This document shows positions 12,225-25,594 of a stretch of 64,000 bases of DNA, in pieces (the stretch's first letter is position 1; each line of letters starts with the position of its first letter). The notes below the pieces were generated by a model. That model saw nothing but the letters and a program-made list of their open reading frames with translations, was not told the origin of the DNA and searched no databases. A program made the position numbers and the translations under genes. The DNA comes from an uncultured Planctomycetota bacterium (GTDB taxonomy: Bacteria > Planctomycetota > Planctomycetia > Isosphaerales > Isosphaeraceae), in NCBI GenBank assembly GCA_963845755.1, contig CAWJTV010000018.1, positions 64,001 through 128,000 on the forward strand, written 5' to 3'.

Positions 12225-12256
12225 CGCCCATGCGGGCTTCGAAACAATGGTTAGCC
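12225..12256 (+). other. attI-like site; core GTTAGCC at 12250-12256
   Basis: cgaaacaatg/gttagcc resembles the attI1 ending aaacaaaGTTRRRY. It precedes the first cassette and pairs with that cassette's R'' box GGCTAAC. Confidence 0.7.
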
Positions 12257-12286
12257 CGCGCCAGGCGGCAGCAGAGGGGGGCGGAG

Positions 12287-12934
12287 TTGGCGACCTTCAC
12301 CGGATACGACCAGGACCGCATCGTCTTCGAGACGATCGCTGATGAGCGGGCCCCCGGCTTGCTACTCCTGATCCACGGGGCCGTCTTCGCAGGGGCACCT
12401 CTCTACGCCTCGGCACTGTACGGGCTGAAGGGGGCCTCAGCTTGGCTGCTCCTCGTCGTGGGAGTCCTGGCGGGCCTCGCCGAGACCGCCTTCGCCTCGA
12501 TCGTGCTGCTCAAATCCGAGTGGCTCGTCATCGACCTGCGGCGGCGGTCCTATACCGGGCATCGCGGGGTCTTGTTCTGGGGCGACAAGTGGTCCGGGCC
12601 CATCGGCGACTTCCATCATATCCGGCTGAGTGAGGTCCCTCGCGGGCGACATGGCCGTCATCGCCGCCTGGTCGTCGAATGGGTCTGGGCCGAGCCGGGA
12701 CGCCCTCCGTTCCGCGTCACCGGCTGGGGCCGCCTCAAGTCCTTCCGTATCACCCGATGTCCGCAGGGGGGTGACGGTCGAGGATTCCTGCGGGATCTCC
12801 GCGCCGTCGCTGAGGATGTGGGCCTCCCGTTGGTCGTCCCGGAGCGATATGTCGATGGCCTCGGCGTCAACGACCGGGAAGTCGACGGCCCGGCTAACAA
12901 GGCGATGCAGCGGACCCGCTGCGCGGGCCGCTGA
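12287..12934 (+). CDS. Cassette 1: hypothetical membrane protein (2 TM)
   Basis: TTG start after a GGAG RBS; ORF reads into the attC. Confidence 0.7.
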   Translation: MATFTGYDQDRIVFETIADERAPGLLLLIHGAVFAGAPLYASALYGLKGASAWLLLVVGVLAGLAETAFASIVLLKSEWLVIDLRRRSYTGHRGVLFWGDKWSGPIGDFHHIRLSEVPRGRHGRHRRLVVEWVWAEPGRPPFRVTGWGRLKSFRITRCPQGGDGRGFLRDLRAVAEDVGLPLVVPERYVDGLGVNDREVDGPANKAMQRTRCAGR

Positions 12935-12950
12935 TCTTGCGTCGTTAGGC
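12892..12950 (+). repeat. attC site (59 bp)
   Basis: GGCTAAC...GCAGCGGACCCGCtgcGCGGGCCGCTGA...GTTAGGC. Confidence 0.92.
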
Positions 12951-12967
12951 GGCTTACCGGAGGCACT

Positions 12968-13471
12968 ATGAACTACAAGCAAATAGCCTCGCGTCTCACC
13001 GGCATCAGTTGTCCCGTCTTCGGCGTTTCGTGGAATCCCCCGGCCACAGAGGTCGATGTCGCCCAGCGAGTCCTTTCGTTTCTCGAAGACCGCCGTGTAC
13101 TCTACAACGAGTACGAGATGGAGTTGCCTGACCATTGCATGATGTCGGTCATCGACATTCGCCGCTTTCTCACTGACGTTCTTGGCCGCCTTCCCAACAA
13201 GCAAGGGCTTCCGGCCCATCTGCGTATGATGCGTGCAGCTTGTCGTCAGTTCCTGGACAAGAATGGCGGCGAACGATTCCGCGATCACCAACCGCACATG
13301 TTTGGTGGCCCGGAGACGTGGGTTTTTGCCAGCGCACTTGGCGATCTCCGAACCACAATCGGGCTACACGTGGGAATCGTCTGCACCATGTATGGCCTTG
13401 GCGTCGAGGGCGACCTTGCGAAGATACTCCCCCCGCTGCCGAATGACGATAACGAGGAGGCCGATGCCTAA
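12968..13471 (+). CDS. Cassette 2: conserved hypothetical protein (DUF6650-like, from recall)
   Basis: IASRLTGISCPVFGVSWNPP...FLEDRRVLYN; GGAGG RBS; stop TAA lies inside the attC R'' box. Confidence 0.8.
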   Translation: MNYKQIASRLTGISCPVFGVSWNPPATEVDVAQRVLSFLEDRRVLYNEYEMELPDHCMMSVIDIRRFLTDVLGRLPNKQGLPAHLRMMRAACRQFLDKNGGERFRDHQPHMFGGPETWVFASALGDLRTTIGLHVGIVCTMYGLGVEGDLAKILPPLPNDDNEEADA

Positions 13472-13525
13472 CAGGCGGTTGCAGCGGACCCGCCTGCGGC
13501 GGGCCGCTGAACCTTTTCGTTAGGC
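13466..13525 (+). repeat. attC site (60 bp)
   Basis: GCCTAAC...GTTAGGC with the conserved internal palindrome. Confidence 0.92.
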
Positions 13526-13545
13526 GGCAGTGTGGAGGCGACGCT

Positions 13546-13812
13546 ATGCGGTCGGCCACCCGATCTTCTCTATTCGTGGTCGCGTGGTCGGTCGGGCTGG
13601 CCTCGCGCTACGCGAACCGCGGTGATCCTCAGTGGGCCACGAAGTTGCGGGTGGCGTGCCTGTTCTTCGTCCTCGGAGGAGCCTTGCTCTGGTCGATCCA
13701 GAAGATCTCCAAGCGGCCGTGGCCTTGGTTCGTAGAAGGCATCGCACTACCGTTCGTCGCCGGCGGCTTGATCTACGGGATCGTCGCCGTACGCAACGCG
13801 TTCAGGGGATAG
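13546..13812 (+). CDS. Cassette 3: small 3-TM membrane protein
   Basis: Hydrophobic ORF with GGAGG RBS between two attC sites. Confidence 0.65.
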   Translation: MRSATRSSLFVVAWSVGLASRYANRGDPQWATKLRVACLFFVLGGALLWSIQKISKRPWPWFVEGIALPFVAGGLIYGIVAVRNAFRG

Positions 13813-13816
13813 CTTT

Positions 13817-13874
13817 GTCTAACAATGCGATGCAGCGGACCCGCTGTGCGGGCCGCTGATCTTGGGCGTTAGCC
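13817..13874 (+). repeat. attC site (58 bp)
   Basis: GTCTAAC...GTTAGCC. Confidence 0.92.
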
Positions 13875-13886
13875 AGCGGAGGGCTC

Positions 13887-14162
13887 ATGGCCGACGATCT
13901 TGTGCACCTCCTGCTCGACATCAAGCTCGCCGGCGACGGGTTCGCATCGCCGGACGAGTTTGATCTCCGGGACCGGCTCGTTGAGCGGATCGAGCGACTG
14001 GGCATCGGTGAGGTCGGCGGCTATGGCTCGGGAGTCGGCGGCATGGACATCTCCGTGCTCGTCGCTGATGAAGCTGAAGGTCGGGGGCGGCTGAGTCGAA
14101 CTCATGCAGGAGGTCGCGCCGGATGCTCGCTTCACCATCGAGGTACTTGCAGACGAGGATGA
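13887..14162 (+). CDS. Cassette 4: small acidic hypothetical protein (possible frameshift near 14095)
   Basis: GGAGG RBS; MADDLVHLLLDIKLAGDGFASPDEFDLRDRL... Confidence 0.65.
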   Translation: MADDLVHLLLDIKLAGDGFASPDEFDLRDRLVERIERLGIGEVGGYGSGVGGMDISVLVADEAEGRGRLSRTHAGGRAGCSLHHRGTCRRG

Positions 14163-14163
14163 C

Positions 14164-14224
14164 GGCTAACGAGGCGATGCAGCGGACCCGCCTGTCGGCG
14201 GGCCGCTGATCTATGGCGTTAGCC
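14164..14224 (+). repeat. attC site (61 bp)
   Basis: GGCTAAC...GTTAGCC. Confidence 0.92.
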
Positions 14225-14234: not shown

Positions 14235-14564
14235 ATGACACACGATATCGAGGCCGAGTTGACCCTCCTTCCGACCGAGCACGGCGGGCGCCACCTTCCA
14301 GTGTCCTCCGGCTACCGCCCCCAGTTCTATTACAGCGGCCACGACTGGGACGCGGTCCATACATACGTCGATGTCACGGAAGCCCGTCCCGGCGATACCG
14401 TCACCGTCCGGTTGTCCTTCCTTAGCCCGGAAGCGCACGCGGGCAGGATCTTCGCCGGCATGCCGTTCCTCGTGCGCGAGGGTAATCGGGTCGTCGGATA
14501 TGGTCGCGTGACTCGCATCCTTGACTTGGAGGCGGCACATCGACAATCTTCGAAGGAGGGCTAA
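14235..14564 (+). CDS. Cassette 5: stand-alone EF-Tu C-terminal (domain III)-like protein
   Basis: IEAELTLLPTEHGGRHLPVSSGYRPQFYY...PGDTVTV...FLVREGNRVVGYGRVTRI parallels EF-Tu [29 protein letters not shown]...PGDN...FAIREGGRTVGAGVV; no GTPase domain. Confidence 0.85.
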   Translation: MTHDIEAELTLLPTEHGGRHLPVSSGYRPQFYYSGHDWDAVHTYVDVTEARPGDTVTVRLSFLSPEAHAGRIFAGMPFLVREGNRVVGYGRVTRILDLEAAHRQSSKEG

Positions 14565-14616
14565 CAAAGCGATGCAGCGGACCCGCTGCGCGGGCCGCTG
14601 AATTTGGGCGTTAGCC
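14559..14616 (+). repeat. attC site (58 bp)
   Basis: GGCTAAC...GTTAGCC. Confidence 0.92.
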
Positions 14617-14641: not shown

Positions 14642-15021
14642 ATGAGGGCCGATGATGACCCGTACTTCACGGCGACCGACAAGGCCAAGCCGCATCCGCC
14701 CCGCGGCATGGCGCAGCTCGTGGTGCGAATCCCTTGGTGCCTCTCCTGGGTCGCCGTGGCGCTCCTGTCTATGCAGGTGTTCGTCTCGCCGATCATCTAC
14801 CAGTCGCGGCTGGCGACCGGGGCCTATATCATGACGGAGATCGGGGCCGGGGCGGCTCGGTGCCATCTCGGCCTTCGGCGTGCTGGCCATCCGACTGGTG
14901 CGTTCAGGAGGCTCGCCCGATCCGTACACGAGGAGACTGGCTTGGTCGATACTGAGGGGCCTGCTGGTTGTCATCCTCATAATGACGGGGCTCGAGGTCG
15001 CCTGAGGGAGGCCCCGGCTAA
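14642..15021 (+). CDS. Cassette 6: hypothetical membrane protein, probable frameshift
   Basis: Hydrophobic N-terminal half in ORF 14627-15073; hydrophobic reading resumes in another frame ending at the R'' TAA. Confidence 0.5.
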
Positions 15022-15075
15022 CAAGGCGATGCAGCGGACCCCGCTGCGCGGGGCCGCTGATCTGGGGCGTTAGAC
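15016..15075 (+). repeat. attC site (60 bp)
   Basis: GGCTAAC...GTTAGAC. Confidence 0.92.
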
Positions 15076-15084
15076 GGTGGGGCA

Positions 15085-15420
15085 ATGAGCGTCAGCGACG
15101 ATCTTGACCGGTTGTTTCCAGGCCACCGCTCGCCCGAGCGGGTTGCCGATTGGGAGGCGCTCGAGCAGCGCCTTGCCTACGGGCAGTCCGTCACTGGTAC
15201 GGTCGTCGTCAAATCCCCGTTCGGGGCGTGGGTCGACCTCGGCGTCGGTTTCCCTGCCCTGCTGGAGATCATCGTCATTGTGGGCCTGACGCCCGAGAAA
15301 TATCGTGCGGGTGACTGGTGCCCTGTCGGTAGCGAAGTCTCGGCGTTTGTCGGTGGATTCCGCGATGACTCTCATCAGATAGGGCTGTGGCAGGTGCCGG
15401 TCGGCCATGGCCGCGTCTAA
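15085..15420 (+). CDS. Cassette 7: stand-alone S1 RNA-binding (OB-fold)-like protein
   Basis: WEALEQRLAYGQSVTGTVVVKSPFGAWVDLGVGFPALLEI resembles the S1 repeat motif (GxxVxGxV...FGAFVDLG..GLLHI). Confidence 0.7.
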   Translation: MSVSDDLDRLFPGHRSPERVADWEALEQRLAYGQSVTGTVVVKSPFGAWVDLGVGFPALLEIIVIVGLTPEKYRAGDWCPVGSEVSAFVGGFRDDSHQIGLWQVPVGHGRV

Positions 15421-15473
15421 CTCCGCGTTGCAGTGGACCCGCCTGCGGCGGGCCGCTGAACTTTCCGTTAGGC
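15415..15473 (+). repeat. attC site (59 bp)
   Basis: GTCTAAC...GTTAGGC. Confidence 0.92.
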
Positions 15474-15492: not shown

Positions 15493-15810
15493 GTGGAGTG
15501 GCTCGTGCCATGGCATTCTGTCGCTGATGATCCAGCCTAGGTGGAGGGCATGGTACGTGAGTTACTCCGCGAGCTTGCTGAAGGTCACCCGCTCTACCGC
15601 CTCCCGGTGCGGACGTGGGGTCGCAGGCAGGACCGCGACGACGTGCTGTTCGCCATAGAAGATGGTAGCGGGCGCGTCGCGGTCGTCCATCTGGCGTGGA
15701 CTTGGAATCCACCCGATCCTCCGCCCTGGCCATGGACCATGCTGTATCGAAGCTTCGATGCGTGGATCGTCGAGGGTGTGCGCCGCGATTACGACGAGTT
15801 GCATGCCTAA
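15493..15810 (+). pseudogene. Cassette 8: small hypothetical protein with an in-frame TAG at 15538-15540
   Basis: GTG GAG TGG...GCC TAG GTG GAG GGC ATG, in frame with ORF 15541-15810 (ELLRELAEGHPLY...DDVLF...RVAVVHLAW). Confidence 0.55.
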
Positions 15811-15862
15811 CCTGCGGTGGCAGCGGACCCGCTCCGCGGGCCGCCGATCTTGGGCGTGAGGT
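15805..15862 (+). repeat. attC site (58 bp), degenerate R' (GTGAGGT)
   Basis: GCCTAAC...GCAGCGGACCCGCtccGCGGGCCGCCGA...GTGAGGT. Confidence 0.8.
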
Positions 15863-16434: not shown

Positions 16435-16737
16435 TCTATGAACCCGCTGAAGTCAAGCCCCCCGACTGATTTTTTCCGGGCGTCCCGCGGGGCGCGGACA
16501 GCGATCGCTCCGAGTCCGACAGCGTATGTCCTGGCTCCCCGTTTGCGGGGAGCCAGGACACACGCTGTCTCTCGTTCTCCAGACAACGCCGGTGGTCCTG
16601 CGATCGACACTCTCCTTGTCCTTCTCGAAGAACTCCCGAGACCGCGGCTGGTGGCTTCGTCACGCGCGTCGCGCCTGCCAGGAGGCCGCGACCACCTTCT
16701 CTCCGTGTGGATCCTCACTCAAGGGACCGAGCACCCG
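16435..16737 (-). ncRNA. Candidate bridge/seekRNA region of IS copy 1
   Basis: Non-coding, structured, conserved in both IS copies, and 3' of the transposase as in IS1111-group elements; guide loops not assigned. Confidence 0.55.
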
Positions 16738-17950
16738 TTACTCTGTTCGTCCGCGGACGACTCCGAAGCCAGGTGTGGGGACAAACCCATCTAACTCACG
16801 GTCGGCTGCCGCCGACCAGGCGCTTTCCGCCCCCTCGGGGACCTCGCCCTGCTCCAGGTATCGCCACAGCGCGATCAACAACTTGCGGGCCAGGGCCACA
16901 ATCCCCACCTTGCGCCGCCGCGTTGCCCTCGCCGAACCGACGCTGATACCACTGGCTCAAGGCGCTGTGGAGCTGCCAGTGCAGCCAGCCCCAGGCGATC
17001 TCCACCGCCATCCACCGCAGACGACAGTTCCCCGCCTTGCTGATCCCTTGCTCGCGCTGACCGTCGCCACTGGCGTACGGCGTCGGGGCCAAACCGGCGA
17101 GGCTCGCCAGCTCGCGGCGGTTCTGGATCTGCCGCCAGCCGAAGAACTCGCGGACGAACCGCGTCGCGCTCATCGGACCGATCGCCTTGAGGTTCAGCAG
17201 CAGCCGCGGCTTCTCGACGTCGGCCGTCGCGTCGTCGCGGAACGCTCGCCGCTGGGCGTTCTCCAGGTCGCGCACCTGGCGGTCCACCAGTGTCCATCGC
17301 TTGAACTCGCGGCGGATGCGGGCACTCAGCTCGGCCGGGACCGGCCTGCCGTCCCATTGGCGAAGTTGGCCGAGGCGTTCCGGCAACGGGTCATCGACCA
17401 CGACGTCAAGGCCGAGGTTGGCGAGGAGTCCCTTGATGCGATTGGAGTGCTCGGTGCGCTGGCCCTTGACGGCGATCAGCTCGCGGTGGGGCTGACGGCG
17501 GTCCTCATCGTCGGGGGTGGGGATGCGGACGACGCTCCAGAGCTTGTGCTCGCCGCCGTGATAACGGATCAACATCGTCAGGAGCTTGCCGACGTCGAGC
17601 CGATCGCTCTTGGCGCGACGCGCGCGGCGGTTGACCTCGATGCTGGCGGCGTCAACGACGAGGTTCGTGACTGCGTGATGTTGGAGATCGCGATGGAGCC
17701 AGAAGCCGTCGCGGCCGGCCTCGTAGCAGGAGACGAGGGGGACATCGCCGGAAAGGGCGAAGCGTTGCCTGGCGAGGAGGATCTCGCGCTGGAGACCTTC
17801 GAGATCGCGAGCGGGGATGGTGCGGAGCCGCGGCTTCTGGGCCATGGCGGTGGTGAAGGCGAGGTTCAAGGACGTCCAGCCGAGGTCGAAGGCGAGGAAG
17901 AGCGTGTTCGAGGCGGTGGTGGTAGGATGAAGGTCGTGGGTCGCTGACAT
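16738..17950 (-). CDS. IS110-family transposase/recombinase (frameshift near 16915 before RKVGIVALARKLLIALWRYL)
   Basis: DEDD motifs AFDLG, YEAGRDGFWLHR, KSDRLD; C-terminal GLAPTPYASG...GISKAGN. Confidence 0.92.
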
Positions 17951-18100: not shown

Positions 18101-18111
18101 GGCTTCGAGCG

Positions 18112-19458: not shown

Positions 19459-21026
19459 TCTATGAAACCGCTGAAGTCAAGCCCCCCGACTGATTCTTTC
19501 CGGGCGCCCCGCGGGCGCGGACAGCGATCGCTCCGAGTCCGACAGCGTGTGTCCTGGCTCCCCGCAAACGGGGAGCCAGGACACACGCTGTTTCTCGTTC
19601 TCCAGGCAACGCCGGTGGTCCTGCGATCGGCACACTCCTTCCTCTTGCGAAAGAACTCCCGGGACCGCGGCTGGTGGCTTCGTCACGCGCGTCGCGCCTG
19701 CCAGGAGGCCACGACCACCTTCTCTCCGTGTCGGTCCTCATTCCAGGGACCGAGCACCCGTTACTCTGTTCGTCCGCGGACAACTCCGAAGCCAGGTGTG
19801 GGGACAAACCCATCTAACTCACGGTCGGCTGCCGCCGACCAGGCGCTTTCCGCCCCCTCGGGGACCTCGCCCTGTTCCAGGTATCGCCACAGCGCGATCA
19901 ATAACTTGCGGGCCAGGGCCACAATCTCCACCTTCGCGCCGCGCGTTGCCCTCGCCGAACCGACGCTGATACCACTGGCTCAAGGCGCTGTGGGGCTGCC
20001 AGTGCAGCCAGCCCCAGGCGATCTCCACCGCCATCCACCGCAGACGACAGTTCCCCGCCTTGCTGATCCCTTGCTCGCGCTGACTGTCGCCACAGGCGCA
20101 CGGCGTCGAGGCCAAGCCGGCGAGGCTCGCCAGCTCGCGGCGGTTCTGGATCTGCCGCCAGCCGAAGAACTCGCGGACGAACCGCGTCGCGCTCATCGGA
20201 CCGATCGCCTTGAGGTTCAGCAGCAGCCGCAGCTTCTCGACGTCGGCCGTCGCGTCGTCGCGGAAGGCACGCCGCTGGGCGTTCTCCAGGTCGCGCGCCT
20301 GGCGGTCCACCAAAGTCCAGCGGTCGAACTCGCGGCGGATGCGGGCACTCAGCTCGGCCGGGACCGGCCTCCCATCCCATTGGCGAAGTTGGCCGAGGCG
20401 TTCCGGCAACGGGTCATCGGCCTCGACGTCAAGGCCGAGGTTGGCGAGCAGGCCTTTGATGCGATGGGAGTGCTCGGTGCGCTGACCCTTGAGGGCGATC
20501 AGCTCGCGATGGGGCTGGCGGCGATCTCCGTCGTCGGGCGTGGGGATGCAGACGATGCTCCAGAGCTTGTGCTCGCCGCCGTGATAACGGATCAACATCG
20601 TCAGGAGCTTGCCGACGTCGAGCCGATCGCTCTTGGCGCGGCGGGCGCGGCGATTGCCCTCGATGCTGGCGTCGTCGACGACGCAGTTGGTGACGGCGTG
20701 GTGTTGGAGATCGCGATGGAGCCAGAAGCCGTCGCGGCCGGCCTCGTGGCCGGAGAGCACGGGGGCGTCGCCGGGGAGGGCGAAGCGGTCTCGGGCGCAG
20801 AGGATCTCGCGCTGAAGGGCGTCGAGATCGCGAGCGGGGATGGTGCGGAGCCGCGGCTTCTGGGCCATGGCGGTGGTGAAGGCGAGGTTCCAGGACGTCC
20901 AGCCGAGGTCGAAGGCGAGGTCGAGCGTGTTCGAGGCGGCGGTGGTAGGATGAAGGTCGTGGGTCGCTGACATGGTAAAACTCCGAGGTTGAGAGGGATT
21001 TGGCGAAAGACCTCTTCTGAGGAGGT
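19459..21026 (-). mobile_element. IS110-family element copy 2, decayed; transposase-upstream end missing
   Basis: Begins after CT (19457-58) with tctatgaa as in copy 1; similarity to copy 1 ends at about 21026. Confidence 0.88.
19761..20973 (-). pseudogene. IS110 transposase copy 2 (same frameshift; SCYEAG>SGHEAG, PYASG>PCACG)
   Basis: Highly similar to copy 1, but the conserved C-terminal Ser is replaced by Cys. Confidence 0.85.
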
Positions 21027-21164
21027 TAGAGCGCCCCACCGTTGGGTGGCACCCACTCGAAGCCTGCTCCCGAAGAACCCCCTGAACCCCCCCTGCGAAG
21101 GGGGGGTTCGGGGGTGAGTTCGCAGCGCCTCAGGGCGTGCGCAACGCAAGAGTTAAGCGCTCTA
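21027..21164. mobile_element. MITE-like 138-bp element with 8-bp terminal inverted repeats TAGAGCGC/GCGCTCTA
   Basis: IRs at 21027-34 and 21157-64; internal hairpin ccccctgaaccccccctgcgaagggggggttcggggg. Confidence 0.5.
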
Positions 21165-21449: not shown

Positions 21450-21854
21450 ATGCATTTGGAGTTTGTCGTAGTCGGTGTTCCCATCTCAAACCAGTCGGCA
21501 GGAACTGCCGCCCTTCAAGCCTGGCGGACGGCGGTAGAGACCGAAGTAAAGAAGAACTGGACTGGTACTCCACTGACCGGCAGGCTGAAGGCGGTTATCA
21601 TCAACTTTCACACGGGTGATAAGCCATCCCTCGACCTCGACAACATGACGAAACCGATACTGGACGTCATGCAGCAAATCGTCTACGACGATGACCGCCA
21701 GGTTCGGCAGGCCGAACTCACACACGTCCGGATCGACGCGCCGTTCGTCTTCGTCGGGGCCTCGAAACTTATCGTGGCCGCCGTGCAAGCCGGTAATGAG
21801 TTTGTGTACGTGAGAATAGAGGACCCGATCGATCCATTCCCATTACCGACGTGA
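21450..21854 (+). CDS. Cassette gene: RusA-family endodeoxyribonuclease-like protein
   Basis: FVVVGVPIS...DLDNMTKPILDVMQQIVYDDDRQV: RusA DxDNxxKxxxD...DDxQV motif. Confidence 0.85.
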   Translation: MHLEFVVVGVPISNQSAGTAALQAWRTAVETEVKKNWTGTPLTGRLKAVIINFHTGDKPSLDLDNMTKPILDVMQQIVYDDDRQVRQAELTHVRIDAPFVFVGASKLIVAAVQAGNEFVYVRIEDPIDPFPLPT

Positions 21855-21858: not shown

Positions 21859-22542
21859 ATGGATTACGAACAAGAGTTGAATCGTTTGGCAGACATTTAT
21901 CGAGGTCACGGCTACGACGTGACCGTCCGGCCTGGCCCGGATCAATTGCCTCCGTTCGCCAGAGATTTCAGGGTGGAAATCCTCGGCCGCCGCGGAGCCG
22001 AGGGTGTGCTCGTTGCAGTCAGGAGAAACCGCGACGAAGTTGCAGCCGACAGCGACATGCAGCGGTATGCTGAGACCACGGGAGCTCAGCCTGGGTGGCG
22101 ATTCGATTTCGCCATTCTCGAGTCGGAGCAGCCGAATGCCAGAGAGGTGCGGGGAGCGAAGGAGCTTTCGCAGGACGACATCAACAAGTCACTTGAACAG
22201 GCACGGGAACTCAGCCGAATGGGCTTCACAGGGTTTGCGGTCGTCGCAGCTTGGGCCACGTTGGAAGCGGCCATGCGGATGCGGCTCCGGGCTCTCGGAC
22301 AGGAAGCGGGTTGGGGAAGCATCCCCAGGCAGATGACAAGAGAACTCTATTCCGCAGGCGCGTTATCCCCAGACGAATTCCGTCGAATTGAGAGCGCGTC
22401 CCAGCTCAGGAACCAGATCGTTCACGGCTTCGCGTCGCAGCCCGCTGAGCCAGGCGATTCTGAGGCTGCGATGGTCGAAGTTCTGAGCGGCGTCGCTCAT
22501 CGCCTCGTTAATGAATCCCAACCCGCAGCGCAATCCACTTGA
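21859..22542 (+). CDS. Cassette gene: REase (AHJR-like) N-terminal domain fused to HEPN-like domain
   Basis: LADIYRGHGYDVTVRPGPDQLPPF...PGWRFDF (AHJR-like REase, from recall); AWATLEAAMR...LRNQIVHG (RxxxxH HEPN motif). Confidence 0.7.
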   Translation: MDYEQELNRLADIYRGHGYDVTVRPGPDQLPPFARDFRVEILGRRGAEGVLVAVRRNRDEVAADSDMQRYAETTGAQPGWRFDFAILESEQPNAREVRGAKELSQDDINKSLEQARELSRMGFTGFAVVAAWATLEAAMRMRLRALGQEAGWGSIPRQMTRELYSAGALSPDEFRRIESASQLRNQIVHGFASQPAEPGDSEAAMVEVLSGVAHRLVNESQPAAQST

Positions 22543-22556: not shown

Positions 22557-22614
22557 GGCTAACCCGCGGTTGCAGCGGACCCGCTGCGCGGGCCGCTGAA
22601 CCTGGGCGTTAGCC
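22557..22614 (+). repeat. attC site (58 bp)
   Basis: GGCTAAC...GTTAGCC. Confidence 0.92.
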
Positions 22615-22631: not shown

Positions 22632-22946
22632 ATGAAAGCGATCTCGTCCGTGCTGCTCATCCTGGCAGTCGCCTGCTCCGGCACGGGGCAAGAGCCGGAG
22701 GACGGCTACGTCCCGGACGATGGATTCGTCCCAAGCAAGGAAGTTGCTATCAAGATTGCCGTCGCGGTCTGGGAGCCGATCTACGGCGCGGAGAAAATCG
22801 CCAAGGAGAAGCCCTACCGTGCGACCCTGGCCGACGGCGTTTGGACCGTCGAGGGATCGCTATCGAAGGGCAGCAACGGCGGTGTGGCCCTCGCCAGGAT
22901 CGCGAAGAAGGACGGCCGCATCCTTCGCGTCACCCACGGCAAGTGA
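22632..22946 (+). CDS. Cassette: YbbC/YhhH-family NTF2-fold immunity protein with signal peptide
   Basis: GFVPSKEVAIKIAVAVWEPIYG...KPY...WTVEGSL...GGVA...I.KKDGRILRVTHGK. Confidence 0.85.
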   Translation: MKAISSVLLILAVACSGTGQEPEDGYVPDDGFVPSKEVAIKIAVAVWEPIYGAEKIAKEKPYRATLADGVWTVEGSLSKGSNGGVALARIAKKDGRILRVTHGK

Positions 22947-22975: not shown

Positions 22976-23032
22976 GCCTAGCCTTGCGATGCAGCGGACC
23001 CGCTTTGCGGGCCGCTGAGCTTTGTGTGAGGT
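22976..23032 (+). repeat. attC site (57 bp), both R boxes degenerate
   Basis: GCCTAGC...GCAGCGGACCCGCtttGCGGGCCGCTGA...GTGAGGT. Confidence 0.8.
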
Positions 23033-23038: not shown

Positions 23039-23386
23039 GTGAGAGCGTCCACGCGACAACGTGACCATGGACTCCCGCTCGTCCTTCGTTGGTCGCGGGA
23101 CGTCCTGGGAGCGTTCGTCACTCTGGTAGCCCTCGTGTTCACGACCCGGAACTGGGGGACGCCAGCGGCGGCAGTCAACTGCGCCCTCGCTGTCGCCGGG
23201 GCCGTCGGGCTCCGGCTGCGATCGTGGCCGGTCCTCGCAGCCTTGTCTGGTGCGTATCTCGGCGCCATCGCGGGGACCTCCATGGGGGACTCGGCGGTAA
23301 ACGCGCCGGTTCATGGTCTGTTGCTCGCCATCTGCGGGACGGTTGTGGGATATGGCTTTCAAATGATGGAGCGGGGACCGGCCTAA
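23039..23386 (+). CDS. Cassette: small multi-TM membrane protein
   Basis: Hydrophobic ORF with stop inside R''; start uncertain. Confidence 0.6.
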   Translation: MRASTRQRDHGLPLVLRWSRDVLGAFVTLVALVFTTRNWGTPAAAVNCALAVAGAVGLRLRSWPVLAALSGAYLGAIAGTSMGDSAVNAPVHGLLLAICGTVVGYGFQMMERGPA

Positions 23387-23439
23387 CGAAGCATGGCAGC
23401 AGCCCCACTGCGCGGGGCCGCTGATCCTGGGCGTTAGGC
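23381..23439 (+). repeat. attC site (59 bp)
   Basis: GCCTAAC...GTTAGGC. Confidence 0.88.
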
Positions 23440-23461: not shown

Positions 23462-24100
23462 ATGCGTTCGTTCTGGGGCGAGTTCGTTCGCGCGCGTGCC
23501 TTCTGGGTGAGCTACGTCAGCGCGGGGGTGGATTTCGTCGGTTGCGGCAGCCTCCAGGCTGACCAACGGCTGCTCTGGGAGGAGCCGACGTGCGGGGCGA
23601 CGCTGATGTTCCGCTTCCCCGACTCCCACCGGCTGCGCCTGGATGTTGCGGCGGGGGAGCATAAGCTGCAACTGCTGCACCCCGACTACGACGAGCCGCA
23701 ACTTGTTGGCACGATGGACTGTCACCAGATGAGCGATCTCTTCCGGTGGGACGAGTTCCGGGCGGTCACCCGGCACCTGGCCACGACTTCCGGCCCGACG
23801 TCGGCGCACGAACTGTTGCTGAGTTTCTACGTCGCCGTCACCGAGGATTGTGCGGATGAGCATGCGGTGGTGCTGCGGCGGACCCTGGAAGCGTCGGAGG
23901 TATTTGCCGTCCCGGAAATCGAGCATATCTTGGCCTATACGCGTCGGGTTGCGGTGCGTCGGGATTTCCGATGGGTCCACACCCCGGGGTTGGGGTGGCT
24001 GGCAGAGGGCCGCGACACCTACTGCATGCGGCACACGCGGGGTGAGCTCGACTTCGATCGGTTCAGCCGGTTCCTGGGAGCGCTGGCCAGCGACGCGTGA
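23462..24100 (+). CDS. Cassette: hypothetical protein (213 codons)
   Basis: ORF fills the cassette; stop TGA inside an R''-like box. Confidence 0.75.
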   Translation: MRSFWGEFVRARAFWVSYVSAGVDFVGCGSLQADQRLLWEEPTCGATLMFRFPDSHRLRLDVAAGEHKLQLLHPDYDEPQLVGTMDCHQMSDLFRWDEFRAVTRHLATTSGPTSAHELLLSFYVAVTEDCADEHAVVLRRTLEASEVFAVPEIEHILAYTRRVAVRRDFRWVHTPGLGWLAEGRDTYCMRHTRGELDFDRFSRFLGALASDA

Positions 24101-24194
24101 CCTGCGCTGCAACGGAACCGGACCGCGGCTGCGGCTTTCTGGTAGAATCGAGGCAGATGCTCGGCGGGCCGGGCTGTTGAGCTTGTTGTTACGC
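24095..24194 (+). repeat. Long attC-like site (100 bp), different family
   Basis: GCGTGAC...GTTACGC are near-complementary ends, with imperfect arms (caacggaaccgg / ccgggctgttg). Confidence 0.65.
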
Positions 24195-24256
24195 GGCGGC
24201 CAATCTACCGACAGTGGTGATGTCGCGGGGGACCACGCCTGCAGTCGGGGGCTACT

Positions 24257-24604
24257 ATGCAAGAATTCGGGCCCTACTTCCTTCTTGCCTCAATGCTCGG
24301 TTCGCTCCTCGCTCCTCTCCTCATCGGAATCTTACCGAGGGAGGCAGCCAGGCGTGTGGTGGTATGGGCTCTCCGCATCTTGGTCCCGACCTTCCTCGTA
24401 AGTTTCATCTCGCTCGCGGCACAAGGGGATCGAGGCTTCCTCAGCAACTCGCAATCCGTGCTAACGGGCTCCGTCTTCTTGATCCTGTCCGTAGGCCTCG
24501 GCTACTTCGTATCATGGCTGCGTCACACATTGTCGAGCCGAGGTATTCAAGGCTCCCGGGGTGGGAAAATCAAGGCGGGACTATTGGACGATGAATTGGC
24601 CTGA
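24257..24604 (+). CDS. Cassette: 3-TM membrane protein
   Basis: Hydrophobic ORF ending GLLDDELA at the attC. Confidence 0.7.
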   Translation: MQEFGPYFLLASMLGSLLAPLLIGILPREAARRVVVWALRILVPTFLVSFISLAAQGDRGFLSNSQSVLTGSVFLILSVGLGYFVSWLRHTLSSRGIQGSRGGKIKAGLLDDELA

Positions 24605-24644
24605 CCTGCGGTTGCAGCGGGCCGCTGCAACCTTCACGATTGGA
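24599..24644 (+). repeat. Collapsed, degenerate attC (~46 bp)
   Basis: GCCTGAC ctgcGGTTGCAGCGG g CCGCTGCAACC ttcac GATTGGA; central hairpin lost. Confidence 0.6.
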
Positions 24645-24654
24645 GGCTCTCTCG

Positions 24655-24918
24655 ATGGTCCGTCAACTCTTCACTGTCGAGGATGTCTTCACGATCCGTC
24701 AGCGTGGCACCATCCTCGTGCCGGGAATCGTGCCCGAGGGCGATGAGTGGTTCCATATCGGCGACGGCTTGTGCCTGCGCCGCCCCGATGGGTCGGAAGT
24801 TCGGACGGCGATCGATGGCATCGACTTCTTCAACGTCAGCGAGCACGGTGCTTACGCGATCGTGGTGCCCTTACCTGCATCCGATGTGCCACTTGGCATC
24901 GAGGTCTGGTCGGCATAG
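24655..24918 (+). CDS. Cassette: stand-alone EF-Tu domain II-like beta-barrel protein
   Basis: LFTVEDVFTIRQRGTILVPGI...IGDGLCLRRPDG...TAIDGIDFF parallels EF-Tu [20 protein letters not shown]...VGEEVEI...TCTGVEMF. Confidence 0.65.
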   Translation: MVRQLFTVEDVFTIRQRGTILVPGIVPEGDEWFHIGDGLCLRRPDGSEVRTAIDGIDFFNVSEHGAYAIVVPLPASDVPLGIEVWSA

Positions 24919-24924
24919 GCTGGA

Positions 24925-24985
24925 GCCCAACAATTGGTTGCAGCCGACGCGCCTGTCGGCGGGCCGCTGAACCTTCGCGTTAGGC
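24925..24985 (+). repeat. attC site (61 bp)
   Basis: GCCCAAC...GTTAGGC. Confidence 0.88.
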
Positions 24986-25036
24986 GGTGGGAGTCTTGGA
25001 GCATCCTTGAGGCGCTGGTGTCGATCGAGGGGTCAT

Positions 25037-25579
25037 ATGCCTTCATCCGTCCGCGGCCTGCTGGGGGCTGTCCCCGTCGTGATGATCGGTTGCCTCGCCA
25101 TCCGGGGCGCTGCTCTGCCGGCTCCCTGGGTCATCACGACCGCGGCGTTCTTGTTCGGCCTCCCCGCATTACTCAGTCCCTCGGCTCGGCCCGAGTGGCG
25201 ATCCGCCTTGATTGCGTTCGCCTGGGCCGGCTCGCTTTACCTCGTGCTGTGCTTCGGCCCCGGCCTCGACCTGTGCGAACTCGAGTACCTCCCCTCCACG
25301 GCGGCACTCAATCGCCTCTTCCCGGTGATATTCACAGAAGGCTATCTCCAAGACCTGGCGGTCGAGCGTGAAGGCTGCACTTGCGACCGATGTGTCACTG
25401 ATGTCCGGGACGGCCTCCGTAGCGGATTTCTCCAGGCAGGCCACATCGTCACCGCGTTGCTCGCGGCGGCACTCTCTGGGCTGGCAGCTTGGGCGCTGTC
25501 ATCGTATCGTGGGGTGGGCGTACGAAAAGAGGCCCGGCCTAACCCACGGTTGCAGCGGACCCCTGCCGCGGGCCGCTGA
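25037..25579 (+). CDS. Cassette: 4-TM membrane protein
   Basis: Hydrophobic ORF reading into the attC. Confidence 0.7.
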   Translation: MPSSVRGLLGAVPVVMIGCLAIRGAALPAPWVITTAAFLFGLPALLSPSARPEWRSALIAFAWAGSLYLVLCFGPGLDLCELEYLPSTAALNRLFPVIFTEGYLQDLAVEREGCTCDRCVTDVRDGLRSGFLQAGHIVTALLAAALSGLAAWALSSYRGVGVRKEARPNPRLQRTPAAGR

Positions 25580-25594
25580 CCTCGAGCATTAGGC
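25537..25594 (+). repeat. Last clear attC site (58 bp), R' mutated to ATTAGGC
   Basis: GCCTAAC...GCAGCGGACCC...GGGCCGCTGA...ATTAGGC. Confidence 0.85.

What the first reader, a model, noticed from the sequence alone, without database searches (positions are those of the whole stretch)
12250..25594. Sedentary-type integron array of ~19 mostly unknown cassettes with a homogeneous ~58-bp attC family
Seen: 15 clear attC sites sharing RYYTAAC-N-GCAGCGGACCCGC-loop-GCGGGCCGCTGA-N-GTTAGNC (57-61 bp; one is 50 bp), plus longer or degenerate ones. Many gene stops sit inside R''. Established: homogeneous attC sites mark sedentary chromosomal integrons, and cassette arrays are enriched in TA and anti-phage genes. 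Most ORFs here have no function I can name, so this is a compact library of candidate defence/immunity genes from a little-studied lineage.
Basis: partly seen in the sequence, partly recalled or inferred. Interest (0 to 1): 0.75.

Follow-up and report, generated by a model that had tools for sequence, protein, structure and literature searches.

The report
Integron cassette array, integrase gene truncated
This is a genuine chromosomal integron gene-cassette array of about 19 small, mostly unannotated genes in a Planctomycetota-like genome, but its own integrase gene is cut down to a stub and two insertion sequences sit in it, so it is an ordinary, partly decayed member of a known kind of element.

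Summary
Fifteen 50-61-bp repeats of one family lie at 12892-25594, all in one orientation. None lies in the other ~51 kb of the window. A model built only from sites in other genomes recovers all 15, plus a 100-bp site (24095-24194) and two remnants. The same family flanks full-length integron integrases in related Planctomycetota assemblies, so these are attC sites.

The window's own intI is a stub of about 66 codons. Two IS110/IS1111-type elements are inserted at the R'' end of attC sites.

By IntegronFinder's published definitions this is an attC cluster lacking an integrase (CALIN). It has 18 detectable sites, so it misses the ">19 attC" rule for "sedentary".

The cassette genes are mostly unannotated: 15 of 22 ORFs have no family. 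None of 27 reading frames hit PADLOC. Conflict-type content is limited to a MazF-like pair, an NTF2-fold immunity protein and a RusA-like/REase-HEPN pair predicted to bind each other. Two cassettes encode stand-alone copies of EF-Tu domains II and III.

Verdict: a new member of a known kind, of modest interest.

The parts
11908..12102 (-). intI remnant: first ~66 codons of an integron integrase (N-terminal SAM-like domain only)
   Evidence: PF13495 at 41.4 bits. TIGR02249 integron integrase, model positions 1-63 of 315, 39.4 bits against a cutoff of 265. tblastn with 11 IntI sequences from related loci matches only 12102-11908. DNA homology to 5 loci stops at 11909.
12150..12178 (+). Pc-like promoter facing the cassettes (TTGCAA-17-CATAAT)
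   Evidence: It is the only + strand sigma-70-like match in 11000-13000 (1 found, 0.2 expected). By eye, CTTGCnA and a -10-like element recur at the same columns in the 8-locus alignment A5. Function is not shown.
12190..12256 (+). attI-like region with the conserved GATTATACG block (TATAAT on the - strand, 12200-12195) and the crossover GTTAGCC at 12250-12256
   Evidence: Alignment of the intI-to-first-cassette region of 8 loci (A5). The ATTATACG block is invariant or nearly so, and GTTAG[G/C/A]C follows about 55 bp downstream.
12892..12950 (+). attC 1 (59 bp)
   Evidence: R1 77.2 bits; R2 47.7 bits. The bottom strand folds into R box, spacer and L box with a bulged T.
13466..13525 (+). attC 2 (60 bp)
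   Evidence: R1 73.0 bits; R2 51.3 bits; fold z-score -5.48.
13817..13874 (+). attC 3 (58 bp)
   Evidence: R1 79.3 bits; R2 54.0 bits; fold z-score -4.08.
14164..14224 (+). attC 4 (61 bp)
   Evidence: R1 74.2 bits; R2 51.6 bits; fold z-score -5.96.
14559..14616 (+). attC 5 (58 bp)
   Evidence: R1 77.9 bits; R2 42.8 bits.
15016..15075 (+). attC 6 (60 bp)
   Evidence: R1 73.2 bits; R2 53.9 bits.
15415..15473 (+). attC 7 (59 bp)
   Evidence: R1 66.7 bits; R2 48.2 bits. The fold z-score is only -1.24.
15805..15862 (+). attC 8 (58 bp, R' degenerate: GTGAGGT)
   Evidence: R1 69.0 bits; R2 36.3 bits.
16435..18052 (-). IS copy 1 (1618 bp, IS110 family, IS1111-type layout), inserted in R'' of attC 9 and flanked by CT at 16433-34 and 18053-54. 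Transposase ORF at 16796-17950.
   Evidence: PF02371 at 54.4 bits. NF033542 IS110 RNA-guided transposase at 139 bits against a cutoff of 140. Junctions of 5 copies compared. A 361-bp non-coding region lies downstream of tnp.
18051..18100 (+). attC 9 (50 bp, short loop); its first bases (AT) come from the IS end
   Evidence: R1 50.7 bits; R2 43.3 bits. The fold is not better than shuffles, z -0.07. Junction reading.
18352..18452 (+). degenerate attC remnant after ORF 18109-18357
   Evidence: R2 16.3 bits, E 0.045; not found by R1. Weak.
19040..19098 (+). attC 10 (59 bp)
   Evidence: R1 73.4 bits; R2 50.7 bits.
19459..21028 (-). IS copy 2 (93.4% identical to copy 1 over 1572 bp). It lacks the last ~47 bp at the transposase-proximal end, and the attC it sat in is gone. 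It is followed by GTTAGAGC.
   Evidence: PF02371 at 46.3 bits.
22557..22614 (+). attC 11 (58 bp)
   Evidence: R1 76.2 bits; R2 45.8 bits; fold z-score -4.87.
22976..23032 (+). attC 12 (57 bp; R'' CTAGCC and R' GTGAGGT both degenerate)
   Evidence: R1 63.1 bits; R2 38.9 bits.
23381..23439 (+). attC 13 (59 bp)
   Evidence: R1 65.2 bits; R2 30.6 bits; fold z-score -3.47.
24095..24194 (+). attC 14, ~100-bp size class (R'' GCGTGAC, R' GTTACGC)
   Evidence: R2 52.6 bits, E 3.9e-12; not found by R1. Its single-strand fold is no better than shuffles, z +0.52 for 24100-24203.
24599..24644 (+). truncated attC remnant
   Evidence: R1 12.7 bits, E 0.85; R2 11.5 bits, E 0.93; hairpin z-score -3.44. Weak.
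24925..24985 (+). attC 15 (61 bp)
   Evidence: R1 60.1 bits; R2 33.5 bits; fold z-score -0.80.
25537..25594 (+). attC 16, last site (R' ATTAGGC)
   Evidence: R1 65.0 bits; R2 38.8 bits; fold z-score -2.55.
12206..12934 (+). cassette 1 ORF (242 aa from an ATG inside attI; membrane-like; runs through R'' to the TGA in L')
   Evidence: no family in Pfam, NCBIfam, PADLOC or PHROGs.
12968..13471 (+). cassette 2 ORF, DUF6650
   Evidence: PF20355 at 57.6 bits; phrog_29952 E 7.8e-32.
13546..13812 (+). cassette 3 ORF, 88 aa, membrane-like, no family
13887..14169 (+). cassette 4 ORF, broken by a frameshift (frame 0 then frame 1), no family
14235..14564 (+). cassette 5 ORF: stand-alone homologue of EF-Tu domain III (109 aa)
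   Evidence: PF03143 at 42.9 bits; TIGR00485 positions 304-393; PDB EF-Tu residues 305-396, E 3.5e-14.
14642..15005 (+). cassette 6 ORF, membrane-like, frameshifted, no family
15085..15420 (+). cassette 7 ORF, weak S1/OB-like similarity
   Evidence: NCBIfam ribosomal protein S1 models, E 6.5e-5, far below their cutoffs; PF00575 E 0.043.
15541..15810 (+). cassette 8 ORF, no family; homologues in arrays L074 and L053
15918..16434 (+). cassette 9: two ORFs (a 98-aa type, frameshifted here, and an ~75-aa ORF from 16209). Without the IS the second ORF would end at ACC TAA in R''.
   Evidence: 83-89% aa identity to the intact pair in L053; no Pfam family even for the intact L053 copy.
18109..18357 (+). 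cassette 10a ORF, 82 aa, no family
   Evidence: only MarR-like hits at E 0.2; homologue in L025.
18502..19038 (+). cassette 10b: antitoxin-like small ORF (frameshifted) and a MazF/PemK-like toxin (18667-19038)
   Evidence: PF02452 at 29.6 bits against a cutoff of 23.1; phrog_1936 MazF-like; homologues in L078 and L058.
19118..19453 (+). cassette 11a ORF, 111 aa, no family
21450..21854 (+). cassette 11b gene 1: RusA-like protein (134 aa)
   Evidence: PF05866 at 42.3 bits; 360 homologue clusters.
21859..22542 (+). cassette 11b gene 2: AHJR-like restriction-endonuclease fold fused to a HEPN-like domain (227 aa; R184-N-x3-H189)
   Evidence: PF18743 at 61.5 bits; sub-threshold HEPN families; homologues named HEPN or DUF86 by JGI; motif conservation; model pLDDT 86; best PDB fold match is HEPN 2hsb, E 3.8e-4.
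22632..22946 (+). cassette 12 ORF: NTF2-fold immunity protein with a signal-like N-terminus
   Evidence: PF15631 at 76.1 bits.
23039..23386 (+). cassette 13 ORF, 115 aa, no family
23462..24100 (+). cassette 14a ORF, 212 aa, no family
24257..24604 (+). cassette 14b ORF, membrane-like, no family
24655..24918 (+). cassette 14c ORF: stand-alone homologue of EF-Tu domain II (87 aa)
   Evidence: 332 cluster representatives; 0 of 50 members hit Pfam GTP_EFTU_D2; 50-sequence profile against PDB matches EF-Tu 219-299, E 4.4e-7; model pLDDT 95.6; Foldseek top hits are EF-Tu, TM 0.64-0.71.
25037..25579 (+). cassette 15 ORF, membrane-like, no family; runs on to the TGA in L'

Best explanation
The region 11908-25594 is a chromosomal integron of a Planctomycetota (Isosphaeraceae-like) genome that has lost its integrase. 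From left to right it holds a 66-codon intI stub on the - strand, a Pc-like promoter, an attI-like site with its crossover at 12250, and then about 19 cassettes on the + strand. Each cassette carries one or two small genes and ends in an attC site of one conserved family (~58 bp, one ~100 bp). In such elements the bottom strand of attC folds into a hairpin made of an R box, an unpaired spacer, an L box with bulged bases and a loop. IntI recombines that hairpin with attI to insert a cassette, or with another attC to excise one. Cassettes are read from Pc (established integron biology). Here nothing in cis can perform that reaction. The array is therefore frozen unless an IntI encoded elsewhere in the genome acts in trans (inference; related genomes carry several such loci). 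Two copies of an IS110/IS1111-type element then landed in the R'' end of two attC sites. Shown here: the repeats, their fold, their one-per-cassette order, their link to real IntI genes in relatives, the intI truncation and the IS junctions. Inferred: promoter activity, past recombination, mobilisation in trans, and all cassette functions.
For: REPEATS. There are 15 sites at 50.7-79.3 bits, all on one strand, and none elsewhere in the window. R2, built only from other genomes, recovers them and adds a 100-bp site.

FOLD. Seven of 10 family sites folded as single-stranded DNA beat at least 197 of 200 shuffles. They show an R-box stem, a spacer and an L-box stem with a bulged T on the 3' arm (consensus). 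In 28 long sites of other genomes, 97.9% of cells pair. Seven of 20 pairs show double changes, 0 of 500 shuffles reach that, and sliding the partner drops pairing to 28-45%.

LINK TO INTEGRASES. The same family gives 355 matches in 67 related loci. In L012 and L071 it lies next to 319- and 326-aa proteins that score 459 and 479 bits on TIGR02249 integron integrase, cutoff 265. L010 has at least 22 sites beside an intact intI. intI and the cassettes are divergent in the window, L010, L071 and L004 alike.

attI. A conserved block and GTTAGNC occur in 8 of 8 aligned loci.

intI STUB..

CHROMOSOMAL SETTING. GcpE, MetRS, aldehyde dehydrogenase and an FGGY kinase lie downstream.

IS. In 4 of 5 compared copies the right junction is ...GTAT-CT-AAC followed by differing attC bodies, and the left junction is a differing cassette 3' end followed by CT. 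This restores an RYYTAAC R'' at the empty site. The IS1111 family is known to have its non-coding region downstream of tnp, and members such as ISKpn4 and ISPst6 target one end of attC (PMC11187229, passages read).

PRIOR KNOWLEDGE. Integrons were reported in Planctomycetes (PMC4889954). A Planctomycetes-specific attC covariance model was published (PMC8352920).
Against: IntegronFinder's own attC model could not be run. Rfam holds no attC family, so its 0 hits say nothing either way.

Three of 10 short sites (15415, 18051, 24925) and the long site fold no better than shuffles.

The short class is so conserved in sequence that covariation is slight: 4 of 15 pairs with double changes, reached by 11 of 500 shuffles.

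The second bulged base is a C where I recall a G in the classical sites. That comparison rests on memory and was not checked in a paper.

No integrase, no excised circles and no expression data exist for this locus.

Strong single sites occur alone in 20-kb stretches of related genomes, for example L020, L021, L048 and L050. The repeat is therefore not confined to arrays in the lineage.

The assembly is indel-prone (see Noticed in passing), so the frameshifts in cassettes 4, 6, 9 and 10b cannot be read as decay.
Confidence: 0.9

Rival explanations
1. A complete, self-sufficient sedentary integron, as the finding's title implies: the integrase is present and the array is actively shuffled in cis.
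For: The attI-like site and a Pc-like promoter are intact and conserved. Most attC sites are well preserved. Related loci have intact integrases.
Against: Only codons 1 to about 66 remain. Eleven IntI queries find nothing else in 64 kb at E below 0.1. DNA homology to five loci stops sharply at 11909. The Pfam scan of the ORF shows only the N-terminal SAM-like domain.
Confidence: 0.03
2. The intI truncation is an assembly artefact: the real genome has an intact gene and the contig is mis-joined or collapsed at 11908.
For: The contig is visibly indel-prone. The DUF2252 gene lies in four frames, and an epimerase and a glycosyltransferase are each split in two.
Against: Indels shift frames but keep homology. 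Here about 760 bp of intI are absent in all frames, replaced by 825 bp with no relative in the loci. The neighbour gene that follows intI in L071, L004, L038 and L020 is in its usual place and orientation. Integrase decay is common in this group: L033, L053, L055, L067 and L076 carry partial or broken copies.
Confidence: 0.05
3. The array is in function a defence/immunity island: most cassettes are anti-phage or anti-competitor genes.
For: A MazF/PemK-like pair, an Imm-NTF2-2 protein and an REase-HEPN protein with a RusA-like partner are present. For that pair the fold model supports binding. The score is 0.72 and the best of 3 controls is 0.00. The mark was reached by 116 of 157 solved complexes and 2 of 215 mismatched pairs. 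The runs agree in at least 80% of contacts and the partner's pLDDT is at least 84. These counts hold only roughly because my own alignments were used. In V. cholerae, 16 of 88 unknown cassettes were anti-phage and invisible to DefenseFinder.
Against: 0 of 27 cassette reading frames hit PADLOC. Fifteen of 22 ORFs have no family at all, and five cassettes encode small membrane-like proteins of no known role. Nothing here was tested against phage.
Confidence: 0.12
4. The repeats are a generic REP-like palindromic element of the genome, unrelated to integrons.
For: They are GC-rich imperfect palindromes. Strong single copies occur outside arrays in related genomes.
Against: They sit one per gene in a single orientation. 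The ends are RYYTAAC/GTTAGNC. None occurs in the other 51 kb of the window. They lie adjacent to bona fide IntI and a conserved attI in at least 8 related loci. An IS family known to target attC is inserted at their R''.
Confidence: 0.01

Closest known systems
Clusters of attC sites lacking an integron integrase (CALIN) and chromosomal integrons found by IntegronFinder, including those of Planctomycetes (Cury et al. 2016, PMC4889954; passages read)
   Same: A chromosomal array of attC-bounded promoterless small genes of unknown function. The attC sites are more alike within the array than is usual for mobile integrons. There is no functional intI nearby. IS elements are present.
   Different: An N-terminal intI stub, an attI-like site and a Pc-like promoter are still in place, so the origin by integrase loss is visible. 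In that survey only 15 of 279 CALIN had a recognisable intI pseudogene nearby. With 18 sites this array is larger than most CALIN: 6.6% had more than 10.
Taxon-specific attC families, Planctomycetes model (Ghaly, Tetu, Gillings 2021, PMC8352920; passages read)
   Same: A conserved attC sequence and structure shared across members of the phylum.
   Different: I could not see or run their model, so identity with this ~58/100-bp family is not shown. Here the family also appears next to IntI genes in assemblies labelled Alcaligenaceae (L073), Rokubacteria (L078), Anaerolineales (L067) and Roseiflexaceae (L033).
Vibrio cholerae superintegron and other large sedentary chromosomal integrons (description recalled; preprint 10.1101/2024.07.02.601686, passages read)
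   Same: Homogeneous attC sites, TA cassettes inside the array, mostly unknown cargo.
   Different: This array is an order of magnitude smaller, has no integrase, belongs to another phylum, and has much shorter attC sites (58 bp; the ~120-bp Vibrio figure is recalled).
IS1111-family insertion sequences that target attC sites (ISKpn4, ISPst6, ISPa25; the 'IS1111-attC group'). Seen through PMC11187229 (passages read). The original papers (Tetu and Holmes 2008; Post and Hall 2009) were seen only as references; PMC2447020 is not held.
   Same: A DEDD-type IS110-family transposase, a long non-coding region downstream of tnp, orientation-specific insertion at one end of attC, no long terminal repeats.
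   Different: The host phylum differs. The relationship of this transposase to ISKpn4/ISPst6 was not measured. A seekRNA was not identified: only 6-7-nt matches to the target were found. Whether the insertion point within attC is the same as for the known group could not be checked.

Membership tests
attC recombination site | Inverse core sites R'' (RYYYAAC) and R' (GTTRRRY) at the two ends | tested here: met
   12 of 15 short sites have exact TAAC...GTTA ends. Three have one-base departures (15805, 22976, 25537). The long site has TGAC/GTTACGC.
attC recombination site | The bottom strand folds into an R box, unpaired spacer, L box with extrahelical base(s) on the '' arm, and a variable loop | tested here: met
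   a conserved 5-bp R stem and a 10-bp L stem with a bulged T, and in several sites a bulged C. Seven of 10 sites fold better than at least 197 of 200 shuffles; 3 do not. Compensatory changes occur in relatives. The canonical base identities are recalled and were not checked.
attC recombination site | One site at the 3' end of each cassette, all in one orientation, ORFs co-directional | tested here: met
   16 strong sites on one strand. Spacings are 347-612 bp except where an IS or a two-gene cassette intervenes.
attC recombination site | Recognised by the IntegronFinder attC covariance model | not testable with these tools
   That model is not in Rfam (0 hits, no attC family held). I used models of my own instead.
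attC recombination site | Recombined by an integron integrase | not testable with these tools
   The only support is indirect: the same family lies beside intact IntI genes in L010/L012, L071, L004, L046 and L073.
Complete integron | intI encoding a full integron-type tyrosine recombinase (catalytic domain and IntI-specific insertion) | tested here: not met
   Only model positions 1-63 of 315 are present. There is no C-terminal match in any frame of the window.
Complete integron | attI site next to intI, ending in GTTRRRY | tested here: inconclusive
   A conserved region with GTTAGCC at 12250 lies in the expected place in 8 of 8 aligned loci. attI function is not testable here.
Complete integron | Pc promoter reading into the cassettes | tested here: inconclusive
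   A consensus match at 12150-12178 with by-eye conservation. There are no expression data, and Planctomycetota promoters may differ.
CALIN (Cury et al. 2016) | [quoted passage not shown] | tested here: met
   16 strong sites. No PF00589 appears among the Pfam results of the flanking ORFs, and no IntI C-terminal tblastn match was found. The intI_Cterm profile itself was not available.
Sedentary chromosomal integron (Cury et al. 2016 rule) | More than 19 attC sites | tested here: not met
   16 strong sites plus 2 remnants make 18.
Sedentary chromosomal integron (Cury et al. 2016 rule) | Present in 100% of the species' genomes | not testable with these tools
   The window's own genome was not among the 116 loci fetched; the best DNA match is the IS at 89%. 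No set of genomes of the species is available.
Sedentary chromosomal integron (general usage) | Chromosomal location and homogeneous attC sites | tested here: met
   Housekeeping genes lie downstream. Mean attC identity is 78.6%.
IS110 family, IS1111 type, attC-targeting | DEDD transposase of the IS110 family | tested here: met
   PF02371 at 54.4 and 46.3 bits against a cutoff of 21.3. NF033542 at 139 bits, one bit under its cutoff of 140.
IS110 family, IS1111 type, attC-targeting | Long non-coding region downstream of tnp, and insertion at one end of attC | tested here: met
   361 bp lie between the tnp stop and the IS end. Four of 5 copies abut TAAC of an attC. Features as stated in PMC11187229.
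IS110 family, IS1111 type, attC-targeting | seekRNA/bridge RNA with stretches matching both target strands | tested here: inconclusive
   Only 6-7-nt matches were found, which are uninformative in GC-rich DNA. There is no Rfam hit.
Known anti-phage defence systems (PADLOC-DB 2.0) | A protein matching a model of a known or candidate system | tested here: not met
   0 of 27 cassette reading frames, and 0 of 6 flank proteins, at E up to 0.01.
Type II toxin-antitoxin, MazF/PemK | A PemK-fold toxin preceded by a small overlapping antitoxin gene | tested here: met
   PF02452 at 29.6 bits against a cutoff of 23.1. A small upstream ORF overlaps the toxin start, but it has no family and is frameshifted.

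The most novel reading that the evidence does not exclude
A few cassettes may be undescribed conflict modules that travel through Planctomycetota integrons. (a) The first is a two-gene unit of a RusA-like protein and an AHJR-type nuclease fused to a HEPN RNase-like domain. The pair recurs together on many contigs and is sometimes fused. The fold model supports binding through the nuclease domain. It could be a new toxin-antitoxin or abortive-infection pair. (b) The second is a set of stand-alone copies of EF-Tu domain II (a ~90-aa family with 332 cluster representatives and no Pfam model) and domain III. They could act as decoys that soak up toxins or phage proteins that need EF-Tu.
Probability: 0.2. 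Interest if true: 0.65.

Novelty: new member of a known kind. Interest (0 to 1): 0.35.

Why it matters
The locus adds a well-resolved example of how a chromosomal integron decays outside the Proteobacteria. The integrase is cut to a stub while attI, the promoter-like site and most attC sites stay intact, and attC-seeking insertion sequences have moved in.

It also shows one attC sequence family shared by many Planctomycetota species and by a few assemblies labelled with other phyla. That fits the published idea that attC types follow habitat as much as phylogeny.

The cargo is where something new could lie. The RusA-like/REase-HEPN pair and the free-standing EF-Tu domain proteins are cheap to clone and test.

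None of this changes what is known about integrons.

Tried and rejected
- Rfam scan of the window: 0 families. tRNA scan: none. Neither is informative for attC.
- 'ParB-like' reading of cassette 9 gene 1 was my by-eye impression. Neither the window fragments nor the intact 98-aa homologue in L053 hit any Pfam family, so I dropped it.
- seekRNA search: k-mer matches between the IS non-coding region and the rebuilt target gave only 6-7-mers. No conclusion.
- The 825-bp stretch between the intI stub and the neighbour gene (11084-11908): blastn found no relative in the loci. tblastx gave only scattered low-complexity noise. Its origin is unexplained.
- G/C-rich palindromes at about 21040-21110 and 25935-26010 share TGCGAAGGGGG: 4 matches against 2.5 expected, reached by 21 of 100 shuffles. 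Not significant.
- ESM Atlas: no usable hit for ORF 23462-24097, and only unnamed clusters at 0.89-0.90 for ORF 19118-19450.
- PDB sequence searches: nothing for 24655-24915 as a single sequence, only noise for 19118-19450 and 18109-18354, and nothing for the REase-HEPN protein by sequence.
The taxon call therefore rests on relatives of the IS, intI stub, neighbour gene and cassette proteins.
- Tetu and Holmes 2008 (PMC2447020) is not held, so the exact insertion point of the known IS1111-attC group could not be compared.
- Literature on free EF-Tu domains in cassettes or as decoys: two searches (listings only) showed no such title. That is not proof of absence.

Full report

Yes. The window has about 65% G+C. 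A strict search for NNNTAAC...GTTANNN pairs 35-130 bp apart finds 12 canonical sites on the + strand between 12892 and 23439.

I aligned 15 sites and folded their bottom strands together. From these I built a covariance model, R1. Run over all 64 kb with filters off, R1 gives 15 matches of 50.7-79.3 bits. All lie at 12892-25594 and all are on one strand. The best match anywhere else scores 13.2 bits, E 0.59.

R1 matches its own training sites by construction. I therefore built a second model, R2, from 28 sites of about 100 bp taken only from other genomes. R2 finds all 15 window sites again at 30.6-54.0 bits. It adds three more:
- a 100-bp site at 24095-24194 (52.6 bits, E 3.9e-12);
- a weak remnant at 18352-18452 (16.3 bits, E 0.045);
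- a truncated one at 24599-24644 (11.5 bits, E 0.93).

Site lengths are 57-61 bp with one of 50 bp. Mean pairwise identity is 78.6% over 105 pairs.

Stop codons fall inside R'' in 10 of 19 cassettes. Two further ORFs run on to the TGA in L'. This count is my reading.

2. ARE THEY attC SITES?

Folded as single-stranded DNA, the bottom strands give the expected hairpin. It has a 5-8-bp stem from the two end motifs, an unpaired spacer, and a GC-rich stem with a bulged T on the 3' arm. In several sites a bulged C lies six pairs further out. The loop is 3-4 nt. Seven of 10 sites beat at least 197 of 200 shuffles. Three short sites (15415, 18051, 24925) and the long site do not.

It returned 117 stretches, mostly from Planctomycetota and Isosphaeraceae assemblies. 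R1 finds 355 matches (E up to 1e-3) in the 67 loci I gave it, out of 116 held; the rest were overlapping or 600-bp pieces. The matches form arrays in one orientation. A ~100-bp size class is mixed in with the ~58-bp one.

In the 28 long sites, 97.9% of cells pair and 7 of 20 pairs carry double changes. None of 500 shuffles reaches this, and sliding the partner drops pairing to 28-45%. The short class, 105 sites from 32 loci, is almost invariant in sequence, so it says little about covariation: 4 of 15 pairs have double changes, and 11 of 500 shuffles reach that.

The decisive link is to integrases. tblastn with the window's integrase fragment finds neighbours of these arrays in at least 11 loci. 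The ORFs in L012 (319 aa) and L071 (326 aa) score 459 and 479 bits on NCBIfam TIGR02249 'integron integrase', against a cutoff of 265. L010 holds at least 22 sites beside an intact intI. In L010, L071 and L004, as in the window, intI and the cassettes point away from each other.

The stretch between intI and the first cassette aligns across 8 loci. A sigma-70-like match (TTGCAA-17-CATAAT, 12150-12178) faces the cassettes. By eye it sits on conserved columns.

(a) The integrase is gone. The ORF at 11554-12096 (-) carries only the N-terminal SAM-like domain (PF13495). It matches positions 1-63 of the 315-position integron-integrase model.

Eleven IntI proteins from relatives match only 12102-11908 and nothing else in the window at E below 0.1. 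DNA similarity to five loci stops sharply at 11909.

The next 825 bp have no relative. After them comes a gene (11083-9215, -) whose homologues follow intI in L071 and L004 and lie beside arrays in L038 and L020. That gene belongs to a multi-copy family of hypothetical proteins: 276 hits, several named from Isosphaeraceae, none with a Pfam domain.

Broken or partial integrases are common in the related loci. L033, L053, L055, L067 and L076 have them, against full-length copies in L004, L010-L019, L046, L049, L051, L071, L073 and L078.

(b) Two copies of an IS110-family element lie in the array. They are 93.4% identical over 1572 bp, and 348 of 384 transposase residues are identical.

I compared five copies: two in the window, two in L049 and one in L044. 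The element runs from TCTATGA... to ...GGACATAGTAT and is flanked on both sides by CT. In 4 of 5 copies the right flank is AAC followed by a different attC body, and the left flank is a different cassette 3' end. The empty site is therefore RY[CT]AAC, the R'' motif.

Copy 1 (16435-18052) sits in R'' of the 50-bp attC at 18051-18100. Without it the upstream ORF would end ACC TAA in R'', like its neighbours. Copy 2 (19459-21028) has lost its last ~47 bp and the attC it sat in. It is followed by GTTAGAGC.

The 361-bp non-coding region lies downstream of the transposase gene. That is the IS1111-type layout. Members of that family are known to target one end of attC sites under guidance of a seekRNA (PMC11187229, passages read). 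I could not identify the guide here.

4. THE CARGO

All 22 cassette ORFs are on the + strand.

Six pass a Pfam gathering score:
- DUF6650;
- EF-Tu C-terminal domain;
- PemK/MazF;
- RusA;
- AHJR-like nuclease;
- Imm-NTF2-2.

One more, at 24655-24915, is placed by profile and fold (below). Fifteen have no family in Pfam, NCBIfam, PHROGs or PADLOC. PADLOC hits 0 of the 27 cassette reading frames that I submitted. Five cassettes encode small proteins with two or more hydrophobic segments.

Some cassettes recur in other arrays. The two-gene cassette 9 recurs in L053 at 83-89% aa identity. ORF 24640-24918 recurs in L040, L028 and L030. ORF 15541-15810 recurs in L074 and L053, and ORF 18109-18357 in L025. 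The MazF-like pair recurs at 60% in a locus labelled Rokubacteria (L078).

Two items deserve a note.

The first is the pair in cassette 11b. The 227-aa protein at 21859-22542 is an AHJR-type nuclease fused to a HEPN-like domain. Three HEPN Pfam families hit it below threshold. JGI names several homologues 'HEPN' or 'YutE/DUF86'. R184 and N185 are nearly invariant and H189 is invariant in 30 sequences. A model with pLDDT 86 has HEPN proteins as its best PDB fold matches, led by 2hsb (E 3.8e-4, TM 0.71 on the target), followed by HEPN-MNT toxins. Holliday-junction resolvases match the N-terminal half lower in the list.

Its upstream neighbour is RusA-like. Of 117 distinct contig lengths in the nuclease list, 49 recur in the RusA list, 28 of them on contigs of 5 kb or less. 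Two 366-aa fused forms exist.

The complex prediction supports binding but does not show it. The score is 0.72 and the best of 3 controls is 0.00. The mark was reached by 116 of 157 solved complexes and 2 of 215 mismatched pairs. The runs agree in at least 80% of contacts and the partner's pLDDT is at least 84. These counts hold only roughly because my own alignments were used. The interface joins nuclease residues 81-90 to RusA-like residues 95-115.

The second is a pair of cassettes that encode free-standing EF-Tu domains. ORF 14235-14564 matches domain III (PF03143; PDB EF-Tu 305-396, E 3.5e-14).

ORF 24655-24915 belongs to a ~90-aa family with 332 cluster representatives. No Pfam model covers the family: 0 of 50 members hit GTP_EFTU_D2. 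Its 50-sequence profile matches EF-Tu residues 219-299 (domain II) at E 4.4e-7, and nearly all 61 PDB hits are EF-Tu. The model (pLDDT 95.6) has EF-Tu chains as its top fold matches (TM 0.64-0.71, probability 1.0), although the Foldseek E-values are only about 1e-2.

A decoy role is my speculation. It rests only on the known use of EF-Tu by some interbacterial toxins (PMC9071432, abstract in a search listing).

5. HOW IT WORKS, AND WHAT IS INFERRED

Established integron biology says that IntI recombines folded bottom-strand attC hairpins with attI or with each other, and that Pc drives the cassettes. The parts for that are present here except the enzyme. The array therefore cannot shuffle by itself. 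Mobilisation by an IntI encoded elsewhere is plausible but untested. One related assembly shows intI or arrays at four or more places: L004, L038, L071 and L076.

Promoter activity, past recombination and all cargo functions are inferred.

6. COMPARISON AND NOVELTY

By the definitions of Cury et al. 2016 (passages read) this is a CALIN. It is unusual in keeping an intI stub, attI and Pc, and in its size. It fails their '>19 attC' rule for a sedentary integron, and the alternative rule (100% of the species) cannot be tested.

Three things are already in print: integrons in Planctomycetes, a Planctomycetes-specific attC model (PMC8352920) and attC-targeting IS1111 elements. The locus is therefore a new member of a known kind.

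7. CAVEATS

IntegronFinder and its attC model were not available. The contig is indel-prone: the DUF2252 gene lies in four frames, and an epimerase and a glycosyltransferase are each split. Frameshifts in cassettes 4, 6, 9 and 10b therefore cannot be called decay.

The lineage assignment (Planctomycetota, Isosphaeraceae-like) rests on relatives only. 

Noticed in passing
window 26171-27600; 42647-43844; 46618-49147: Ordinary genes are broken by frameshifts. The DUF2252 gene is spread over four reading-frame pieces. A UDP-GlcNAc 2-epimerase is split into two ORFs, and a glycosyltransferase has its GT4 part in a separate ORF. This looks like an indel-prone assembly, so frameshifts inside cassettes should not be read as pseudogenes.
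   Followed up: partly
window 9215-11083 (-); L071 14047-15663; L004 ~5300-7071; L038 5537-6527; L020 16172-16754: The gene next to the intI stub has homologues right beside intI or arrays in four related loci. It belongs to a multi-copy family of hypothetical proteins with no Pfam domain: 276 hits, with several copies named from one Isosphaeraceae assembly. It may be a mobile-element gene or a lineage-specific paralogue family. Its link to integrons is unexplained.
   Followed up: partly
L053 4179-6518 (-), next to attC 6518-6578: A 779-aa group II intron protein (RVT_N, RVT_1, maturase and HNH domains) abuts an attC site in a related array. This recalls the group IIC-attC introns described in PMC3001079, seen as a search listing only.
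   Followed up: partly
L073, L078, L067, L033, L001, L006, L031, L047, L064, L069: The same attC family scores 45-68 bits in assemblies labelled Alcaligenaceae, Rokubacteria, Anaerolineales, Roseiflexaceae, Competibacter, Acidobacteriota, Burkholderiales and Methylococcaceae. Four of them have IntI genes or fragments 53-68% identical to the Planctomycetota ones. This points to cross-phylum sharing of an attC type, or to binning errors. Pattern matches in Mycobacterium, Nocardia and Paracoccus are not among the 300 listed of 355 R1 matches, so they look like chance.
   Followed up: partly
L020, L021, L048, L050, L079 (position ~10000 in each): In some related genomes a strong site stands alone in a 20-kb stretch. 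These are single attC sites outside arrays.
   Followed up: no
window 12206-12256: The longest reading of the first cassette's ORF starts at an ATG (12206 or 12230) inside the attI-like region, upstream of the crossover point. If so, attI would supply the start of whatever cassette sits first. It could be chance.
   Followed up: no
window 36033-36368 (-) and 35096-36028 (-): A XisI-family gene (PF08869, E 7.8e-38) lies next to a methyltransferase in a local G+C dip (0.556 at 36-37 kb).
   Followed up: no
window 54000-59500: This stretch has lower G+C (0.58-0.60) and no long ORF with the high third-position G+C typical of the rest. It sits inside a glycosyltransferase/sugar-nucleotide gene cluster.
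   Followed up: no
window 291-8558 (-): Three large ORFs (1330, 782 and 392 aa) left of the integron have no hit in Pfam, NCBIfam, PHROGs or PADLOC and no relative in the fetched loci.
   Followed up: no
window 18470-18505: The MazF-like cassette has what looks by eye like its own TATAAT box and a GGGGAGG ribosome-binding site just before the antitoxin ATG at 18502. The promoter scan did not list it because no -35 match was found. Own promoters are usual for TA cassettes (recalled).
   Followed up: no
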